A stretch of 62,763 bases of DNA, filler included, from Rhabdomonas costata (GCA_019059605.1; 40 parts of 40 records of this genome joined end to end with filler, not necessarily neighbours in it), one strand, 5' to 3'. Shown: positions 1,900-54,099, counted from the whole stretch's first letter. The notes: generated from the letters alone by a model not told the origin. Translations and numbers: made by a program.

Positions 1900-4800
1900 C
1901 TCGCAGGATATCCAAAAAGGGTGAACCCAAACGAAAAGGATTTGAGTAGGACTCACATGAAAATCTGCAATCTGCGATCTGCAAGGAAAATCCATTCCGG
2001 AGGAACGCCACCTTAATCCAATCACGGTGCAAAAAAACTGGGCGGGTGGAAACGGATACGGCACTGCTCCGTGCATCCTAAGAATGACCAAGGAGTCTTT
2101 GGATCATACAACTGTGTACGCGTGGGGGCGGGGTCCCAAGTTCTTACCTCCTTTCACGGCCGCAAGTAGTACCATTGTGCTACTGTGCAGGTCTCCCCGA
2201 GCGATTGCATTGGGAGAAGGGGGAGGAAGGGGCAAGGGAAGACATGTGGAACCACGACGGATTATCAGCACTGCTATCACTATCAGCAGGAATTTGCCTG
2301 TGGGTTCAGGGGAATTTCGTTTAAACCACCTCAAACAATAGAGTCCCGGCAGTCCCCATTGGACACACTTTGCTCCCCTCTATTTATCCATTTCCTGCCA
2401 CCCACAACCCACCCAAGACACACAAGACCCTCACAGTGAAGCAACCTGCAAGCCGGCATGCATGCGTAGCTGTCACTTTCCCATTTGCTTGTGCCTCTTG
2501 TGCCTCACTTTTCCTCAATGGTGATCACTGGAGTAACCGTTTGCTGCCCCTCGCGTGTCCCTTTCGTGGTCTTAAAATTACACCCCACAACCTGTTAGAA
2601 AGCTCCTTTATTGTTCGGATGCCCATGGGTGAACCTTCGCTCTGACTGAAGAGTATGGAGCCAAAGCGCCTTCATTTTTCAGTGGGCATCAAACCAAGAC
2701 GCAGAGCCAACGTTATTTCTGATGCTCAACACCCCACCTCACCACCGCAAAAGAAGAATGTCAGGGATCTCCGGTTTACGAGGCTCCCGTAAAGTACTGC
2801 AGCTTCTGAAAGTGAAGCACATCATTGCCCCAGGACGACCACTCCCTGTGTAGGCATCGTGCAAACAGCTCCAAGAACCGAAGCCCCGAAGGCCCACCAG
2901 AAGGCTCTCCAGCCGGGCCTCCTGTGGTGCGGCTCCCGCGCTCACAATGTACCGAAAAGTCAGTCTTCTCCCCAGAGGCCCTTGCTAGCCAATCACAGGC
3001 ATTTTCTGAGGTTGTTGTGGAATTGCTGGCAGGTGTGCAGGGCTNNNNNNNNNNNNNNNNNNNNNNNNNNNNNNNNNNNNNNNNNNNNTTAATTAATTAA
3101 NNNNNNNNNNNNNNNNNNNNNNNNNNNNNNNNNNNNNNNNNNNNGTGGGGGGGGTGTAGCAACCAAAGAATACGAGCTTTTGTTGGGCCGATATTACCAA
3201 GACGACAGCAACATGAATCTATAAAATTTGTGTAAAGGTTTGAAAAGCACTCACTACTTGCCAAATCACTTGAGCATCTTTCCAATGACGTGAACTTCAC
3301 CGCTGTGCATAAAAAATACGATGAAAAAAAATACGAAAACCCAGGAGCTCTGCGAGGTGGCATCGATTCAACAGATCCCGACTCGCTGTCCATTTCCTGC
3401 AGATAAACTTTGTTGTCTAGGTCGAGTTTCCTTTTCCTTTTCCGTCAATTCTTTTGTGCCTCTTTCGTTTTGTTGCTTCACTCATGCCTTTTGCCTTTGT
3501 CACCTTGGGGACCCCTGTTACTCCAGTGAAGTGAGGTTTTGTTTGAAAAATAACGGATCGACTTCATTGTTTGTCTGATCACCAATGCTTTCACGTGTGA
3601 ACCTACACCCAACCTTTCCGCTGGGTGTACGGAGAAGCGCTGCAATCTGAGCATACCGAGATTCGGTATGTCTCTCCCGAAACGGCTTTAACATCAGCAG
3701 TAATGCAACCGCGAGAGCCGCTGAGTGATCTGCACCGTGGGGGAACCAGCCACAGGCCCAAGATAGCGCCCATGTTCCCAAAAACGCCATCACTTAGGAC
3801 CGGCGGGACCTCAGTGAAGCCCGAAAGGCAGCTCCCTTCAGGATAAAGGTGACACACCGACCATCTGAACTCACAGTCAGGGCAACCAGTGACCTGGTAG
3901 AGAAAAGGCACCAAGCACTTCGGAAGAGACGGAATAACGAGGGGCAGCACAAGCAAAATCACGAGGGGTACCACAAGCTGTTCTGAGAATAAAGTTTATC
4001 GCCACAGGGCAGGACTGCATTGAATTTTATTCTTTGACTTAGGGACAATTGTGTCTGTTTGTCCGTGAATTTTGAACTTGAACTTTTTTGTTGGATTGAA
4101 CTTAGAAATGCCTCACACTGAACTTTGAGCTTTTGGGTTTCTGAAATATTTTGGCATTGAATTGAACTTTTTTATTCCCCAGTTACATGGAATTTGAGAG
4201 GGCTAAGCCGAAGCAGGCCTGGAGTCTTTTGTATATACAGCAGGCCTCCCGAAACGCTGCGTGGCCGGTCCTTGGGGTCAGGAGAGTCCCGACCTTTCAA
4301 CCTCGGACGGTGGTGGTGCCCCTTGGCGGCATTTCGTACCCTTTTGCGCCGCTTCTTGCCCCACGCAGCGGAGGGTTTACGACAGCACCCACAAGGTAAC
4401 AAGGTACTGTACAACGAACCACCCACGCCGAAAGGGGCTCGGCAACTGGCACGTAGCCGCCTGCAGCCCACAAAAATAACCGAACTTTGAGGATTTTTGA
4501 CCTCTTCGCCCGAAGGGAACCACGTTGAACTTTGAACTGGAAGACATGGTTACTTCGACTCATGAGCATCATTAAGAAAACTTGTTCATCATTGCAAGAG
4601 TTATCCAACCACCACAANNNNNNNNNNNNNNNNNNNNNNNNNNNNNNNNNNNNNNNNNNNNTTAATTAATTAANNNNNNNNNNNNNNNNNNNNNNNNNNN
4701 NNNNNNNNNNNNNNNNNGTTTTTTTTGAAGACAGAATATGAAAGGGAGAAAGGAGGAGGACATGATGGAGACTTGAAACGCCTGAAAAAAAAAACCTGAA

Positions 4801-5037
4801 AAAGGAGTGATGTAGCCTCGAAACCAGTGCACTGCAGCACTTGGTTGTTCATTACTAGTTGTGAACTCCGGACACATCTGTCGGGCATCAGTCGGGCATT
4901 TCATCTCTTGTAGGTTTCCCTTTTTTTTCTGGGAGCGGTCCAACCGCTTGTCTTTCCCTGCACTGTGCTTTGCAAATGGAGCCGATGCATGGCATCTCTT
5001 TGTACCCTCCGGACTCGCCTGTGGGCAACCTGGTCTC

Positions 5038-6187
5038 GATGGCGCCCAGCAGTGCGTACAGCCAGGACGGCCGCCACCGGAACACCACAATCATCATCCC
5101 GAAGAGCATAAGCAGTAGCAGCAGGGAGCTGAGGCCGCCCCACAGGAAGGAGAAGTCCCACCGTGAGACCATGCAGAACACTGTGATCGACGCGACGATG
5201 GCCAGGGTCATTCCGGCCGCGGCAAGCACGGCGGGACCCGCCTGGCGCTCGGCAAACATCGCACAGAAGGCACCTTGAGGCGTTTTTTCGGAAACCACGT
5301 TTGTGGGGTTTGTGGGAATGCTGGGAGAGCGCTAAGCCGATGCAGGACCTTGGGGAATGCATAATCCAAGCAGTTGTGTGTCCCTCCACCTCAAAAGTGA
5401 GACTTTCAGAAATGTTGTCAAACGGAAGCGTTCCGCCTTATTGGCAACAGTTGAAAACGAAAGTGCCCCAATGACGGTGCAACCGCTGCCGATAGCATCG
5501 CTCCATCACTGGTGTGGTGTCTTCATATTTATTCCGCTGGTATTTTGACTTCTTCAACAGAAACACCTGCACACCAGCACTTTTTGGCTTATGGAGCTAA
5601 ATCTTCGCATGGCCATATCCGGCACATACCATCGCAAACTTATAAATGCCGTGATTTACCGCAAGTCAATTGGTATATAGGGCAATGACCATCAGAAAAC
5701 AAGTAGGTCACAAAGTAACCCCGAAAAGGACCACTCGCACCCAACCCGACCCTATCCAACATGCGTAAAACCTCAAAAGCATGGGGAGCTTTATGATGAG
5801 ACCAACCGTTTATTCACTTGTGAGCTTGACTCTCGTTAGGTGAGGAATGGACATCTCTCTCCGGCAACGAAGAGTCTCAACTCACTCTTGATAGTACGGT
5901 GAAATGATGGTCACTGTTTCTCCTGCAGACTTCCGTGAACTGACCGGAGGAAGACCGACTTTTGTTTTCCGGCGATCTCTCCTCATTTGCCATTTCTGTA
6001 ATGCGCATGCGAGTGTTAAATGTAAAACGGCTTCTTTTGCCACAAGCGTCCGGCAAGCCCGACGCAGTGTGACGTGTGCACCCATCGTGGGGCGAAAGGC
6101 ACACCCAGGCTCCAGGACTCCAGCAGGGTGAACAGCCCCAGGGTCAACAGGTTGGTTGGATAACTCTTGCGCACCGCGAACACAACC
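5038..6187 (-). CDS. Bax inhibitor-1 / lifeguard (TMBIM) family membrane protein (partial; exons 6187-6105, 5273-~5038)
   Basis: RKSYPTNLLTLGLFTLLESWSLG|AF...VLAAAGMTLAIVASITVFCMVSRWDFSFLWGGL...LYALLGAI, typical BI-1 family helices; GTGTGC...AAG intron 6104-5274. Confidence 0.88.
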
Positions 6188-11280: not shown

Positions 11281-12460
11281 TCGTTTCTTTCCCGAGACGC
11301 GAGGAAAGACAGAATTGAGAAGCTCAAGGCATTGCTAGCGGCCCAGCCCTTCGTCTCGGTGTTCAACACCACCGACAAGAACGGGAACCCAGCGGAGCCC
11401 CTCACCCTTCCCTTGGACCCCGACATTCAGGTAATGCAGGGAACTGGGGGTGGGGGGTTCTGAGGAAAGCATAGGTTTTGACCTGAAGCATTCCTCTCGA
11501 TTGAGAAGCTCCTAAGTATGTTTCTGGCAAGCTCGTCCGGAACTGGGTGGGAACTGAAGCCTTGTCTTCTTTTGTGCGCTTCTCCACTTTGATCCTGTCT
11601 TCCCCCTTTCCCCTTTAGTGCACTCTTGAAGGTCATCTTTCTGTTTCCCACTTGCCTTTTTATTCGGCCATTTTGCATTTGTGCCGCTACTTGACTCCGG
11701 ACCTTGTTGCTGTGGTCCAACACCCTCCACATTCTCATGTCTCCCTTGTAATCCTCCTGTCTTCTCACAACCTCCTTGGCAGTGATGGGGGGGGGGGCAG
11801 CTTTCCTCCGTGGAGCCGGAGTCGGCACACATCTTCGGCAGCACTAAGCAGCCCATGGCGGTGACCTTCCGCACCACCACGGGAGGGCGGTTCCGCGTGA
11901 TTTTCAAGGTGGGAGACGACCTTCGGCAGGACCAGCTGGTGATCCAGCTGTTCAACCTTATGGTATGGAGCGTTTCACCTCAAATGAAAATATTTGGACG
12001 CAAACATCAAGCAGCCAAAATCCAAGGATGGATGCGCATCAAAATGGGATCAGTTTCCTTCGTTTGGTGCAAAGCCGCCACATTTGAATCTAATCTCGTC
12101 TCTCTCGTTTCTGCGAGGCCCATTCAGCAGGCTGGCATTTCACATATCGTCTCCCCTGCGTTTGTGACGTTTTGGGGATATAGATCAACCTGGACACGCC
12201 AATCATCACACCCTGTATTGGCTGTGGTCCTTATGGAAAACAATAGCTCCGAATATACAGCACAATACTCAGTATGGGGTTACATTCTCGTCGTACAGGG
12301 CCGGGGACTTGCCGTGGCGAGTATGCAGGAACAGGAATGCCAGACGAGCGGGAGCGGGGGTGTTTCTTCCCGTTGCTGTGCTTCTGCAGGCCATCCAGGG
12401 ATGGGGTTTGAGGGTAAGTTTTGGGGTTGGGACCAGGACTCCTTGCTGAAGAAGAACGGG
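11281..12460 (+). CDS. Phosphatidylinositol 3-kinase, Vps34-like (partial; exons 11281-11430, 11801-11962, 12437->12460)
   Basis: KDRIEKLKALL...LTLPLDPDIQ|LSSVEPESAHIFGSTKQPMAVTF...VIFKVGDDLRQDQLVIQLFNLM|DSLLKKNG; FKxGDDLRQD is the PI3K catalytic-domain motif; two GT-AG phase-0 introns. Confidence 0.88.
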
Positions 12461-13136
12461 AAGAAACACCCCCCCCNNNNNNNNNNNNNNNNNNNNNNNN
12501 NNNNNNNNNNNNNNNNNNNNTTAATTAATTAANNNNNNNNNNNNNNNNNNNNNNNNNNNNNNNNNNNNNNNNNNNNGGGGGTGGTGGTTGCTCTGGCGTT
12601 TCGGCTCACGCACGCGCGCAAGTGAAAACAAGGGAAAGGGTCGTCCGTCAAAACAAAACCTGCCCATGACAACAGCAGCAAAGTATGTCTTAAACAGTTG
12701 GTTTATGTCCCCTGTCCACGCACAAGAACTGCCAGTGAGGTGGTTAGGGTTGTCCGGGAATCATGTGTGCGTGATATGGAATTTCGTCCCTATCCTTCCC
12801 TTTCCTTTCGATTCCTCCAGACTGCCATTTTTTGTGACCTCCGCAGGGATGCCATGAGCTGTGCGCGCTGAAAGTAAAATCTGCAGCATCCAATCCGCAG
12901 TTGAATTTGCAACGGGGTTACTGTCACCACTTCTGGTAAGGCCTTCCGCTTCCGCATGGGCACAACACTTCCACAATCAGTCTGACACAACGCCCAATGG
13001 TGGAAGGCGGGGGGGGGGGGCGAAGAAGAGACTGAAAGGAGAGGTGAGCGTGCTCTTTGACTGGAAGAAACCCACGCATATCTTTGCGCACTGCGGCGAG
13101 CATCCGAATTCTCTGTGTGTGCTTGTATGTGTACAG

Positions 13137-29872: not shown

Positions 29873-30635
29873 GTTGTTTGTGTGAACCATTTACTGTTAA
29901 CATTTTATAATTTCTTAAATATTTACAAATTTGTAATGATTCATCATAGGATGTAATTTCATCATCAACACTGTGTATAACAAGAAATTTTGTTGTTGTA
30001 TATAATTGTTGTGAAAGATAGTTACATGTATTATATTTATGACCGTAAAATATACGTAAAACATACCAGATTGGTTTTGTAACTATATTACTTGAATGTT
30101 TGTCAATATTTGCAAATCCTGAATTTAAAATAACTTTTGAAACACAAATATTCTGTTTACATAATGTATTATATAAATGTGAAACAACAGTACAACCTAA
30201 TGAATAACCATATAAAATTATATTTTCAGGTTTGTAATATTTTGTTAAATAACACCATACATAATATGCATCTTGATAAATTCCATATTCTGATGGTTTC
30301 CCTGTACTTTTACCAAAACCACGATAATCAAACATAATTATAGACACGTAATTTTTAATTAAATTAGCTTTATAAATTGAATTATAAATATTACCAGAAT
30401 TACCAGTAGCAAATAAAACAATCAATGATGTTTTTTTATCAAAAAACAAACAATTAATTGTTTCAAGTGTTTTATTATTTATTATATTAATTTCTTTGAC
30501 ATTTCTTTCTTTAATGTAAGTATCTTTTTTTATTGTAATTGGTTCAAACATAAATTTGTGTTCAAGTTGAACAACACATAAATGAACAACTGTAAACATT
30601 GCAAATAGAGAACTTAATATCAAAAACATGATCAT
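29873..30635 (-). CDS. Alpha/beta-fold serine hydrolase (ABHD13/ABHD17-like) with N-terminal TM segment; 3' truncated
   Basis: LFATGNSGNI, MFDYRGFGKSTGKPSEYGIYQDA, nucleophile elbow GYSLG, IHSVDDEI (Asp) and GSH (His). Confidence 0.92.
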
Positions 30636-30696
30636 TTATTTTTTATACTATTTTAGATATTTTTGTTAACTCATACCTGAACATATTTATTTTTTT

Positions 30697-31344
30697 TTAA
30701 ATATTTTTATAATATTTATCATATAATAATTCAGAATTATTTACTTGTTTTACATTTGTTTTATTAAGTTTTTGCCAGACATACATTGGTCTACATATAT
30801 GTTTTTCTTTAGATGTATGACCAATAATACCTAAATATTTAGAATTTTCAAGATTTGAATTTATGTATAATATCATTGGTTCAACATATATATATTTTGT
30901 TTTGGGAACATTTTCAATACTTATAACCATAAATCCGTGTAATTCTAATTGATTCCATGCTTTAGACAATGAAAAACAAAGAAAATCATAAAACCATGAA
31001 TGTAAATCAGAATGATTATGTATTGATTGTGATGAATCAGACGAATAAATTTCCAAATTAAAATATGGTGGACTAGTAAAAATCAAATCATATGTATTAT
31101 TTAAATTACTTTTTTCAAATGGACTATTTGTTAGTATATATTTATCTTGATTCACTTTAAAAAATGTAAGAATATCATTATATCCAGAAACATGTATTAG
31201 GATCAAATCCATGATAATAATCTATATATTTATCTTGTGATATTGCACCAATTAAACGATCGCCCCAACCAGAAGAAAAGTCTAAGATACGTTTACTTTT
31301 AAATAATTTTAGAACAGAAATAACAATTGTTATTTTAAATGTGG
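30697..31344 (-). pseudogene. Amino (N4-C/N6-A) DNA methyltransferase of giant-virus/phage type; 5' truncated, frameshift at ~31190
   Basis: Upstream frame reads RILDFSSGWGDRLIGAI...YHGFDPNTCFWI* (SAM-binding motif I); downstream frame continues SGYNDI...YDLIFTSPPYFNLEIYS (motif IV, SPPY). Confidence 0.85.
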
Positions 31345-53436: not shown

Positions 53437-53521
53437 GTTAGCGTTAGCGTTAGCGTTAGCGTTAGCGTTAGCGTTAGCGTTAGCGTTAGCGTTAGCGTTA
53501 GGGATACGGTTAGGGTTAGGG
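53437..53521 (+). repeat. Telomere-like array: (TTAGCG)10 grading into TTAGGG units
   Basis: Ten perfect TTAGCG (53438-53497), then TTAGGG ATACGG TTAGGG TTAGGG. Confidence 0.92.
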
Positions 53522-54099
53522 TTCCTGGCCGTGGGTACAATTCTAAAGTAATGCCGAATGTTACTATGCATGTTACGAAGGATTCCACTCACGTGGAGGG
53601 TGAATTAACAGCAGAGAACTGGCGCTTGCTCTCTGGCAGGTGGCTCGCAGGTCCCAGGCCTCATCCATGTCGTAAGCAGAGACTCAATTGCCCCCGACAC
53701 CTTAATAACGAGAGTTCTCGAGCCCGAAGGAGGCCTTTTTTTACCATACAGGGGATTTCCGTGTGAAAATCGTGCTGTGGAATTTCAGTAGAAATGCTGG
53801 TCTGAACAGCCTGGTTGTTGTTTACGGTTATTCGAACAGGCGGCGTACTGACATGTTTTTCTCGCGCGGTGCGCGACTTCGTCCGGGGGGGGGGGGTCTA
53901 AGGAATTTGCCAGCCTTTTTAGAACGTTAGAACGACTTTTTGCCGTGGTTAAATCTCGCCTTGAGGTTCCGTTGCCAGTTTTCAGTATAAGTTGTTAAGC
54001 ACCCCCCCTCCCAAAAAAAACAAATGCTCTGGACCCCACTCTTTTATTTTTATCTTGTGGGGGGGGGGGGTCGGGTTCGTGTGCCTTGGCTTCTCACAG

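What the first reader, a model, noticed from the sequence alone, without database searches (positions are those of the whole stretch)
29873..31344. Giant-virus-like contig among euglenozoan-like nuclear fragments
Seen: the only strongly AT-rich, intronless, gene-dense contig, with an ABHD-like hydrolase and a DNA MTase (DFSSGWGDRL...DPN...IFTSPPYFxLExYS). It carries the same amplification scar as host contigs. Known: this MTase style and such hydrolases are common in Imitervirales, and the AT-rich Bodo saltans virus infects a kinetoplastid. Inference: an infecting, ingested or endogenised giant virus associated with this cell, possibly an undescribed virus-host pair.
Basis: partly seen in the sequence, partly recalled or inferred. 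Interest (0 to 1): 0.75.

Follow-up and report, generated by a model that had tools for sequence, protein, structure and literature searches.

The report
Giant-virus DNA fragment in protist assembly
One small AT-rich piece in this patchwork of amplified protist DNA comes from an undescribed giant virus, but the piece is too short to say whether the virus infected the cell.

Summary
The window is 40 contigs of about 1.47 kb joined by spacers. The contig at 29873-31344 has 22.5% G+C against 45.9-56.9% in the other 39, and 96% of it is coding. It carries two co-directional genes.

- **Hydrolase.** A membrane-anchored alpha/beta hydrolase, cut at its 3' end by the contig edge.

Both genes point to giant viruses (Nucleocytoviricota).

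- The methyltransferase family has about 2,000 representatives. It is common on giant-virus bins and on 0.4-1 Mb viral contigs.
- In 185,579 prokaryote genomes, full-length relatives turned up only in MAGs. Three of the four MAGs tested also hold the giant-virus capsid gene.
- The hydrolase sits inside a clade of giant-virus hydrolases. Its best named match is Indivirus, at 33% identity.
- No relative exceeds 54% identity, so the virus is undescribed.

Three points stay open:

- whether the DNA was infecting, eaten, adhering, integrated or a contaminant
- whether the host is a euglenozoan
- whether the enzyme methylates DNA at all

This is a correct but modest finding: a new member of a known kind.

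The parts
29873..29884 (+). Terminal 12-base G/T-only run (6 G), probably derived from the whole-genome-amplification primer. It overlaps the last codons of the hydrolase, including the putative catalytic His.
   Evidence: 34 of 40 contigs start with 8 or more G/T-only bases. No internal 12-mer of this contig is G/T-only with 5 or more G.
29874..30635 (-). Alpha/beta hydrolase gene, 254 codons, 3' end cut by the contig end. It has an N-terminal hydrophobic helix (residues 2-29 in the model). Ser145 sits in GYSLG (30201-30203), Asp225 at 29961-29963 and His252 at 29880-29882.
   Evidence: Pfam Abhydrolase_1 2e-11. Invariant columns S145, D225 and H252. Model pLDDT 88.7. Tree placement. BFVD matches.
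30636..30696 (-). 61-base intergenic spacer between the two co-directional genes. The hydrolase ATG lies inside TAAATG. There is no AAAATTGA motif.
   Evidence: TAAATG occurs 5 times on the two strands of this contig, so it is not evidence of a promoter.
30697..31182 (-). Methyltransferase, C-terminal reading frame, from Tyr (31180-31182) to the TAA stop (30697-30699). It holds motif IV, FTSPPYFNLEIY, and the conserved C-terminal half of the family.
   Evidence: E 3.8e-52, 53% identity to P0025. (54% over 162 residues). (invariant columns).
31183..31192 (-). Frameshift zone. Seven bases (31183-31189) lie between the last in-frame Cys codon of the upstream frame (31190-31192) and the Tyr codon of the downstream frame. 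Relatives have four codons here.
31190..31342 (-). Methyltransferase, upstream reading frame (51 codons), 5' end cut by the contig end. It holds the FK.T motif, the SAM-binding motif I (DFSSGWGDRL) and DPN.
   Evidence: 63% identity over 51 residues to P0025 342-392. (the same piece lies directly upstream of the C-terminal piece in the viral loci).

Best explanation
The contig is a 1.47-kb fragment of the genome of an undescribed giant virus (Nucleocytoviricota, perhaps Imitervirales-like). Its DNA was present when this sample was amplified and was co-assembled with about 50% G+C eukaryotic DNA.

It carries two typical accessory genes of giant viruses.

1. **Hydrolase.** A serine hydrolase of the alpha/beta fold, about 280 aa in relatives, with one N-terminal membrane helix. 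It most likely acts as a membrane-tethered esterase or (phospho)lipase using a Ser-Asp-His triad. This function is inferred.
2. **Methyltransferase.** The catalytic C-terminal half of a methyltransferase family that is nearly confined to giant viruses. SAM-binding motif I (SxGWGDRL) precedes an SPPY motif IV, so it is expected to methylate an exocyclic amino group of a nucleic-acid base. Whether the substrate is DNA or RNA is unknown. This copy is frameshifted as assembled.

**Physical state.** This is unresolved. My split is about 60% non-integrated viral DNA (infection, prey, adhering particle or cross-contamination) and about 25% integrated or decaying copy. The rest is non-viral.
For: **Composition and layout**
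- 22.5% G+C against 45.9-56.9% in the other contigs, z = -12.3. 96% coding, two co-directional genes, a 61-base spacer.

**Methyltransferase**
- 1,996 representatives at E <= 1e-3. The best is 53% identical.
- An IMG/VR scan confirmed 435 of 599+ candidate stretches. The best 80 loci include 10 on GVMAG-named contigs and several on contigs of 0.45-0.96 Mb.
- The record holding the best viral match (L001, 42% identity, 24% G+C locus) is a giant-virus bin with 5 matches to the NCLDV capsid family PF04451. The 957-kb record of L011 has 1 match. The 714-kb record of L009 has none (0 of 14 control genomes).
- In a model-based search of viral structures, the top 10 matches of a full-length family member are all Nucleocytoviricota: Loki's Castle pithovirus-like MAGs, Satyrvirus and Salmon gill poxvirus. 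E-values run from 1e-28 to 3e-11.
- In 185,579 prokaryote species genomes only 27 loci matched, and two had E <= 1e-17. Three of the 4 MAGs tested hold an NCLDV capsid gene. The 'Oscillochloris' match lies on the same 229,619-bp contig as that capsid gene.

**Hydrolase**
- 33 of 91 IMG/VR candidates were confirmed, 18 of them on GVMAG-named contigs.
- A 33%-identical copy sits in a giant-virus bin, next to an S1-domain protein and a kinase-like ORF whose labels I give from reading the sequences, not from a test.
- In a 52-row tree the window's protein lies in a clade of 24 viral rows plus P0001 (SH-aLRT 83). This clade is separated at 100 from the 16-row clade that holds the three Chryseobacterium-named proteins (names).
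- The best named structural and sequence matches are Indivirus ILV1 (33% identity, TMq 0.84), Tupanvirus and Yasminevirus.

**Other**
- One giant-virus MAG contig (L128), 1 of 251 loci, carries both genes within about 1.5 kb.
- The only contig available from the window's own methyltransferase subclade (L213) is AT-rich and compact. It encodes a class I aminoacyl-tRNA synthetase, an ankyrin-repeat protein and a weak, sub-threshold RING-finger match.
Against: - No hallmark gene lies on the contig, and the rest of the assembly could not be searched.
- The viral collections are viral by construction, so counts there do not by themselves show restriction to viruses.
- No eukaryote genome collection was available. 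Two family members come from eukaryote transcriptomes (EukProt rows).
- The window's methyltransferase subclade (11 rows, SH-aLRT 83) contains no IMG/VR-labelled row.
- The hydrolase sits on a long branch (1.33) with only moderate support (83-90). Its identity to viral and bacterial relatives is similar, about 30%.
- The closest viral bin (G001) has no copy of this hydrolase.
- The frameshift could mean a decaying, integrated copy.
- The putative catalytic His codon lies inside the terminal run that may be primer-derived.
Confidence: 0.85

Rival explanations
1. This is an endogenised giant-virus fragment: a sub-case of viral origin, not exclusive of it. The DNA would be integrated in the genome of the amplified cell or of another eukaryote, and would be decaying.
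For: - The methyltransferase is frameshifted, and not at a homopolymer: 7 bases where relatives have 12.
- Giant-virus endogenisation in protists is documented. I saw only the listing and abstract of PMC11244446.
Against: - There is no G+C-rich flank or junction anywhere in the 1472 bp.
- The hydrolase frame is fully open with conserved core residues.
- Composition shows no drift towards the roughly 52% G+C of the other contigs.
- A frameshift in a single-template amplified assembly can be an artefact.
Confidence: 0.25
2. The contig comes from an AT-rich bacterium (endosymbiont, prey or contaminant) or its phage.
For: - Compact, intronless, co-directional genes.
- Bacterial alpha/beta hydrolases (Chryseobacterium type) match at about 30% identity.
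- The protein-atlas feature search put phage methylase clusters first. This is a lead only.
Against: - The hydrolase tree separates the clade that holds the Chryseobacterium-named proteins at SH-aLRT 100.
- The methyltransferase family is almost absent from 185,579 prokaryote genomes. Its best 'prokaryote' carriers hold giant-virus capsid genes.
- No NCBIfam model reached its cut-off.
Confidence: 0.05
3. The contig is nuclear DNA of a different, AT-rich eukaryote (prey or contaminant) whose genes merely resemble giant-virus genes.
For: - Two family members are in eukaryote transcriptome sets.
- The hydrolase resembles the widespread eukaryotic and bacterial membrane-anchored hydrolase type. 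That resemblance is recalled, not tested.
Against: - A 61-base spacer, 96% coding and no introns.
- Both neighbouring genes independently have giant-virus relatives.
- No tRNA or Rfam match to suggest otherwise, which is weak evidence.
Confidence: 0.07

Closest known systems
Unnamed giant-virus methyltransferase family. Examples are UniProt A0A481Z6B6 (Pithovirus LCPAC102), A0A3G5AD75 (Satyrvirus) and A0A0H4Y1D9 (Salmon gill poxvirus). Metagenomic members include P0025-P0028.
   Same: - Motif I SxGWGDRL, DPN, motif IV (T/S)SPPYFxLExY, the QS and W columns and the RPxWVW end are all conserved.
- 53-54% identity to P0025 across both pieces.
- The full-length family fold is found only in Nucleocytoviricota among BFVD top hits.
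   Different: - The window's copy lacks the N-terminal two thirds, which are cut by the contig end, and is frameshifted.
- Its nearest relatives (P0025, P0026, P0031) carry an N-terminal GNAT acetyltransferase domain. Whether this copy did is unknown.
- The family has no Pfam model of its own and, as far as I saw, no tested function. Database names ('type I R-M methyltransferase', 'N4-cytosine DNA methyltransferase', 'RsmD') are automatic.
Pfam PF01555 N6_N4_Mtase (beta-class DNA amino-methyltransferases, for example TTHA0409, PDB 2zie)
   Same: The SPPY motif, followed by the xLxxY...Q...W...L..GG..I pattern, aligns to 2zie residues 37-101.
   Different: - The score is below the Pfam cut-off (20.1 against 26.7 bits).
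- Motif I lies before motif IV here, while in the 2zie alignment it lies after. The class naming is recalled.
- E is only 0.016 against PDB sequences.
THUMP-type tRNA guanine-N2 methyltransferases (TrmN 3tma, aTrm11 5e72 and 6zxv, Trm14 3tlj) and RsmD-like enzymes (2esr)
   Same: - They are the top structural matches of the family model (Z 15.9-14.9, 175-178 residues aligned).
- They share the same order, motif I then (D/N/S)PPY.
- The RsmD-like chain 2esr aligns over motifs I-IV (E 0.022).
   Different: - The Z scores tie with O-methyltransferases and many other class I enzymes, so this does not identify the substrate.
- Identity is 12-16%.
Giant-virus alpha/beta hydrolases (Indivirus ILV1 A0A1V0SD13, Tupanvirus A0A6N1NT39, Yasminevirus A0A5K0U7S3) and the ABH effector domain of Vibrio MARTX toxins (PDB 6imp, 6ii2)
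   Same: - Same length class, N-terminal helix, HGN(x)GN, DYRGFGxSxG and GxSxG motifs, and the Asp and His columns.
- Indivirus: 33% identity, TMq 0.84.
- The profile of the viral clade matches the MARTX ABH domain at E 5.7e-27.
   Different: - Identity to any relative is 33% or less, on a long branch.
- The C-terminal 20-35 residues are missing.
- Substrate is untested. The phospholipase A1 activity of the MARTX domain is recalled from the literature and not shown for the viral proteins.
Bodo saltans virus (Klosneuvirinae), the kinetoplastid-infecting giant virus
   Same: It shows the same contrast of an AT-rich virus against a roughly 50% G+C host: 25.3% G+C for BsV (passage of PMC5871332).
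   Different: - No direct comparison with the BsV genome was possible.
- BsV proteins were not among the top 50 BFVD matches of the hydrolase.
- For the methyltransferase model, the only BsV row was an unrelated FtsJ-type protein at rank 33.

Membership tests
Nucleocytoviricota genome fragment | Hallmark genes (major capsid protein, PolB, A32 ATPase, VLTF3, D5) in the same genome or composition bin | not testable with these tools
   The contig holds only two accessory genes.
Nucleocytoviricota genome fragment | Closest relatives of its genes lie on records that carry NCLDV hallmark genes | tested here: met
   PF04451 capsid matches in the records of L001 (5) and L011 (1), none in that of L009; two further records were not held. 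A hydrolase relative lies in giant-virus bin G004. Capsid genes are present in 3 of 4 'prokaryote' MAGs carrying the methyltransferase, once on the same contig.
Nucleocytoviricota genome fragment | Compact, intronless gene layout with composition unlike the host's | tested here: met
   96% coding, a 61-base spacer, 22.5% against 45.9-56.9% G+C.
Alpha/beta hydrolase fold (Pfam PF00561 / PF12146) | Score above the curated cut-off | tested here: met
   Abhydrolase_1 at 44.5 bits (cut-off 25.8). Hydrolase_4 at 30.1 bits (cut-off 27).
Alpha/beta hydrolase fold (Pfam PF00561 / PF12146) | Nucleophile elbow GxSxG plus the Asp and His of the triad | tested here: met
   S145 (GYSLG), D225 and H252 are invariant columns in 27 sequences. 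Caveat: the His codon lies in the terminal 12 bases that may be primer-derived.
Giant-virus SxGWGDRL-SPPY methyltransferase family (unnamed) | Significant similarity over the catalytic domain, with the family's invariant columns | tested here: met
   E 3.8e-52 and 53% identity. Invariant F, SPP, E, Y, QS, W and L columns include the window's sequence.
Giant-virus SxGWGDRL-SPPY methyltransferase family (unnamed) | Intact, full-length reading frame including the conserved N-terminal region | tested here: not met
   The 5' part is cut by the contig end. There is a frameshift at 31183-31192.
Pfam PF01555 N6_N4_Mtase (DNA amino-methyltransferase) | Score above the curated cut-off | tested here: not met
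   20.1 bits against a cut-off of 26.7. Of 10 top relatives, 1 (P0036) passes and 3 score below the cut-off.
Pfam PF01555 N6_N4_Mtase (DNA amino-methyltransferase) | DNA as substrate | not testable with these tools
   Fold searches tie DNA, RNA and small-molecule methyltransferases.
Imitervirales / Klosneuvirinae | Phylogenetic placement by hallmark genes | not testable with these tools
   Only hints are available. The best named hydrolase matches are Indivirus, Tupanvirus, Yasminevirus and Terrestrivirus. The L213 contig of the methyltransferase subclade carries an aminoacyl-tRNA synthetase and an ankyrin-repeat gene.

The most novel reading that the evidence does not exclude
The amplified cell was infected by, or carries a recent insertion of, an undescribed AT-rich, Imitervirales-like giant virus. 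A 2021 review (passage of PMC8061765) calls BsV the only documented DNA virus of kinetoplastids and says virus infection of diplonemids, euglenids and symbiontids has not been verified experimentally.
Probability: 0.2. Interest if true: 0.6.

Novelty: new member of a known kind. Interest (0 to 1): 0.35.

Why it matters
**Curation.** The contig should be flagged as non-host, so that its two genes are not read as host genes or as horizontal transfers.

**Biology.**
- If same-composition contigs in the full assembly carry hallmark genes and comparable coverage, the cell gives a host handle for an uncultured giant-virus lineage. Such handles are rare for heterotrophic protists.
- The methyltransferase family is large: about 2,000 representatives, tandem arrays, and fusions to GNAT and other domains. 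It is nearly confined to giant viruses, has no Pfam model and has no known substrate. That makes it a reasonable target for biochemical study.

Tried and rejected
**Searches that found nothing**
- Word-based protein search with the methyltransferase piece: 0 hits among 16 candidates.
- Single-protein IMG/VR scans with both proteins: none confirmed. Alignments were needed.
- NCBIfam: no model reached its cut-off.
- phmmer of the methyltransferase piece against PDB sequences: nothing meaningful (E 0.16).
- Cluster look-ups for organism names of 20 family members: none gave an organism.
- Metagenome scan for closer relatives: the best was 44% (L213). The 53% relatives are in assemblies I could not fetch.
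- Rfam and tRNA scans of the whole window: nothing.
- Earlier-findings look-ups: nothing.

- Whole assembly: not held.
Coverage, bridging reads and the reality of the frameshift could therefore not be checked.

**Signals looked for and dismissed**
- Promoter motifs (both recalled): no AAAATTGA on either strand. TAAATG at the hydrolase start is one of 5 occurrences in this AT-rich contig, so it is not evidence.
- An imperfect inverted repeat spans the methyltransferase stop (30687-30729, 79% complementary). Such repeats are common here, with 13 pairs in 1.47 kb.
- Conserved gene order: the two genes co-occur in only 1 of 251 fetched loci (L128), in a different orientation.
- Other viral contigs in the window: by tblastx against the 3.0 Mb of fetched loci, only this one of 40 contigs matched. 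This is a crude, biased screen.

**Attempts that stayed inconclusive**
- Host identity: Pfam on 5 long frames of other contigs gave only a borderline PI3/PI4-kinase fragment. The euglenozoan label stays untested.
- Substrate of the methyltransferase: Foldseek and VIA-align against PDB gave only generic class I methyltransferases.
- The capsid gene of MAG G005 is on a different contig from the methyltransferase locus L081.
- Literature searches for this family were by general words only. I cannot say it is undescribed in print. Supplementary files were not consulted.

Full report
**What the window is.** The 62,763 bases are not one locus. The motif TTAATTAATTAA, flanked by N runs, occurs 39 times and separates 40 contigs of 1468-1481 bp. 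Of these, 34 start with a run of 8 or more G/T-only bases and 24 end with 8 or more C/A-only bases. From recall, that is the signature of whole-genome amplification with G/T-only quasi-random primers. The finding's coordinates, 29873-31344, are exactly one such contig.

**The observation.** The contig has 22.5% G+C. The other 39 contigs range from 45.9 to 56.9% (mean 51.7, sd 2.4), giving z = -12.3. Every 150-bp window within it lies between 17 and 27%, so there is no junction to G+C-rich DNA.
- 95.7% of the contig is coding. Only two stop-to-stop frames of 250 aa or more exist in the whole window, and one is this contig's hydrolase.
- The contig begins with GTTGTTTGTGTG: 12 G/T-only bases, 6 of them G, in a contig with 10.7% G. 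No internal 12-mer on either strand is G/T-only with 5 or more G. The 'amplification scar' is therefore credible, at this end only.
- One consequence is that the last four codons of the hydrolase, including the putative catalytic His, lie in this run and may be partly primer-derived.

**Gene 1, the hydrolase (30635->29874, minus strand).** It is 254 codons long and runs off the contig end.
- Pfam Abhydrolase_1 scores 44.5 bits against a cut-off of 25.8.
- The 5.8-billion-protein search gave 24 hits among 529 candidates. The best is an unnamed metagenome protein (P0001, 32%), followed by proteins at about 30%, three of them named Chryseobacterium.
- A giant-virus bin (G004) holds a 33%-identical, 285-aa copite with the same N-terminal hydrophobic helix.
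- With an alignment, IMG/VR gave 33 confirmed relatives of 91 candidates, 18 on GVMAG-named contigs. The others lie on contigs of up to 1.02 Mb. Nearly all are 253-338 aa, most with a hydrophobic N-terminus.
- In a 52-row tree the window's protein lies in a 26-row clade of 24 viral rows plus P0001 (SH-aLRT 83; inner clade 90). The 16-row clade that holds the Chryseobacterium-named proteins is split off at 100. The window's branch is long (1.33), so its exact place is unsure.
- The AlphaFold model (pLDDT 88.7) matches Indivirus ILV1 best among viral structures (33% identity, TMq 0.84). Tupanvirus, Yasminevirus, Terrestrivirus and Cedratvirus follow.
- Ser145 (GYSLG), Asp225 and His252 are invariant in 27 aligned sequences.
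- The clade's profile matches the alpha/beta-hydrolase domain of Vibrio MARTX toxins at E 5.7e-27.
- I infer a membrane-tethered esterase or lipase. The substrate is untested.

**Gene 2, the methyltransferase (31342->30697, minus strand).**
- Against the best relative (P0025, 562 aa), the upstream piece aligns to residues 342-392 (63% identity). The downstream piece aligns to 397-558 (54%). The gene is therefore one, cut at its 5' end by the contig edge. It is broken between the Cys codon (31190-31192) and the Tyr codon (31180-31182).
- Seven bases lie there, where all 25 aligned relatives have four codons. This is not a homopolymer slip. Without reads I cannot say whether it is real.
- The exhaustive HMMER search found 1,996 representatives at E <= 1e-3 and 740 at E <= 1e-10. 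Most are 300-800 aa with the match at the C-terminus.
- The three nearest fused forms carry an N-terminal GNAT domain. Most members have no Pfam family above cut-off.

**Where the methyltransferase family lives.**
Top loci lie on GVMAG bins and on contigs of 0.45-0.96 Mb. There are often several tandem copies, six in L026.
- The record of the best viral hit (L001) is a giant-virus bin with five capsid-family matches. The 957-kb record of L011 has one and the 714-kb record of L009 has none. Two further records were not held. The same search matched 0 of 14 control genomes.
- Among predicted viral structures, the ten best matches of a full-length member (model pLDDT 88.5) are all Nucleocytoviricota.
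- In one genome for each of 185,579 prokaryote species, only 27 loci matched, all but one (Leucobacter komagatae) in MAGs, and two had strong, near-full-length matches. Of four such MAGs, three contain an NCLDV capsid gene. The 'Oscillochloris' locus lies on the very contig that carries the capsid gene. These are most simply misbinned giant-virus contigs.
- In the domain tree the window's protein is sister to P0025, inside an 11-row subclade (SH-aLRT 83) that has no IMG/VR row. The one contig available from that subclade (L213, 8.5 kb) is AT-rich and encodes a class I aminoacyl-tRNA synthetase, an ankyrin-repeat protein and a weak, sub-threshold RING-finger match. That is a typical Mimiviridae-like mix, a judgement I make from recall.

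**What the methyltransferase does.** Motif I (SxGWGDRL) precedes DPN and motif IV (SPPY). That is the order of RsmD/Trm11-type and gamma-class enzymes, a classification I recall. The segment after SPPY resembles beta-class DNA amino-methyltransferases (2zie, E 0.016). The RsmD-like chain 2esr aligns over motifs I-IV at E 0.022.
- Pfam N6_N4_Mtase is below its cut-off.
- Foldseek against PDB gives only generic class I enzymes.
- VIA-align puts TrmN, aTrm11 and Trm14 first (Z 15.9-14.9), but they tie with O-methyltransferases.
- I therefore commit only to this: a SAM-dependent methylation of an exocyclic amino group of a nucleic-acid base. DNA and RNA are roughly equally likely. The 'DNA MTase' label is not established.

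**Interpretation.** Two adjacent genes independently have their nearest labelled relatives in giant viruses, in a compact, AT-rich, intronless layout. This makes a giant-virus origin the best explanation (0.85).
- No relative exceeds 54% identity, so the virus is undescribed.
- The Imitervirales hint rests on the hydrolase matches and the L213 context only.
- The contig's 5' primer-type run indicates that it was a template in an amplification of the same chemistry as the other contigs. That does not separate infection from ingestion, adhesion, integration or batch contamination.
- The frameshift mildly favours a decaying copy. The intact hydrolase and the unameliorated composition do not.
- The host label 'euglenozoan' was not tested. 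I saw only a borderline PI3/PI4-kinase fragment and a TTAGGG-type telomere-like repeat.

**Known context.** Bodo saltans virus has 25.3% G+C against about 50% for Bodo (passage of PMC5871332). A 2021 review calls it the only documented DNA virus of kinetoplastids and says infection of the other euglenozoan groups has not been verified experimentally (passage of PMC8061765). From recall, giant-virus sequences in single-cell assemblies of protists are a known occurrence.

**Verdict.** The finding is correct and ordinary in kind: a new member of a known kind. Interest is 0.35. It would rise if the full assembly shows a coherent viral bin tied to an identified host.

Noticed in passing
window 53437-53523: One contig starts with ten copies of GTTAGC, followed by GTTAGGG, five other bases and two TTAGGG-type units. 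This is a telomere-like end with a variant (TTAGCG) repeat outside canonical TTAGGG repeats.
   Followed up: no
L082 (= G006:C1:24947-35357), G005, G007: Species-representative 'prokaryote' MAGs labelled Oscillochloris, Saccharimonadales and Bacteroidetes contain NCLDV major-capsid genes. In the Oscillochloris MAG, a 229,619-bp contig holds both the capsid gene and the giant-virus methyltransferase. These are probably misbinned giant-virus contigs.
   Followed up: partly
L026, L017, L020 (IMG/VR loci): The giant-virus methyltransferase family occurs in tandem arrays: 6, 4 and 3 copies of the motif-I segment within 20 kb. It also occurs fused to varied N- or C-terminal domains: GNAT, PALP, RCC1, a second methyltransferase, and a protein named glutathione synthase in Satyrvirus. 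Most members have no Pfam family above cut-off.
   Followed up: partly
BFVD hit A0A0H4Y1D9: A full-length structural and sequence relative of this methyltransferase family (TMq 0.79, 24% identity) is an uncharacterised protein of Salmon gill poxvirus. The family therefore reaches beyond protist-infecting giant viruses.
   Followed up: no
window 11786-12475: A PI3/PI4-kinase-like frame on a roughly 50% G+C contig matches only 24 profile positions and then breaks off. With the scarcity of long open frames on the other 39 contigs, this suggests introns or much non-coding DNA in the main organism.
   Followed up: no
L128 (GVMAG-S-1096104-89, 6,610 bp): This is the only fetched locus (1 of 251) with relatives of both the hydrolase (4792-5805, +) and the methyltransferase (2994-3419, -). 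They lie about 1.5 kb apart and are divergently oriented.
   Followed up: no
PDB 6imp / 6ii2: The profile of the giant-virus membrane-anchored hydrolases matches the alpha/beta-hydrolase effector domain of Vibrio MARTX toxins more strongly (E 5.7e-27) than any other solved structure.
   Followed up: no
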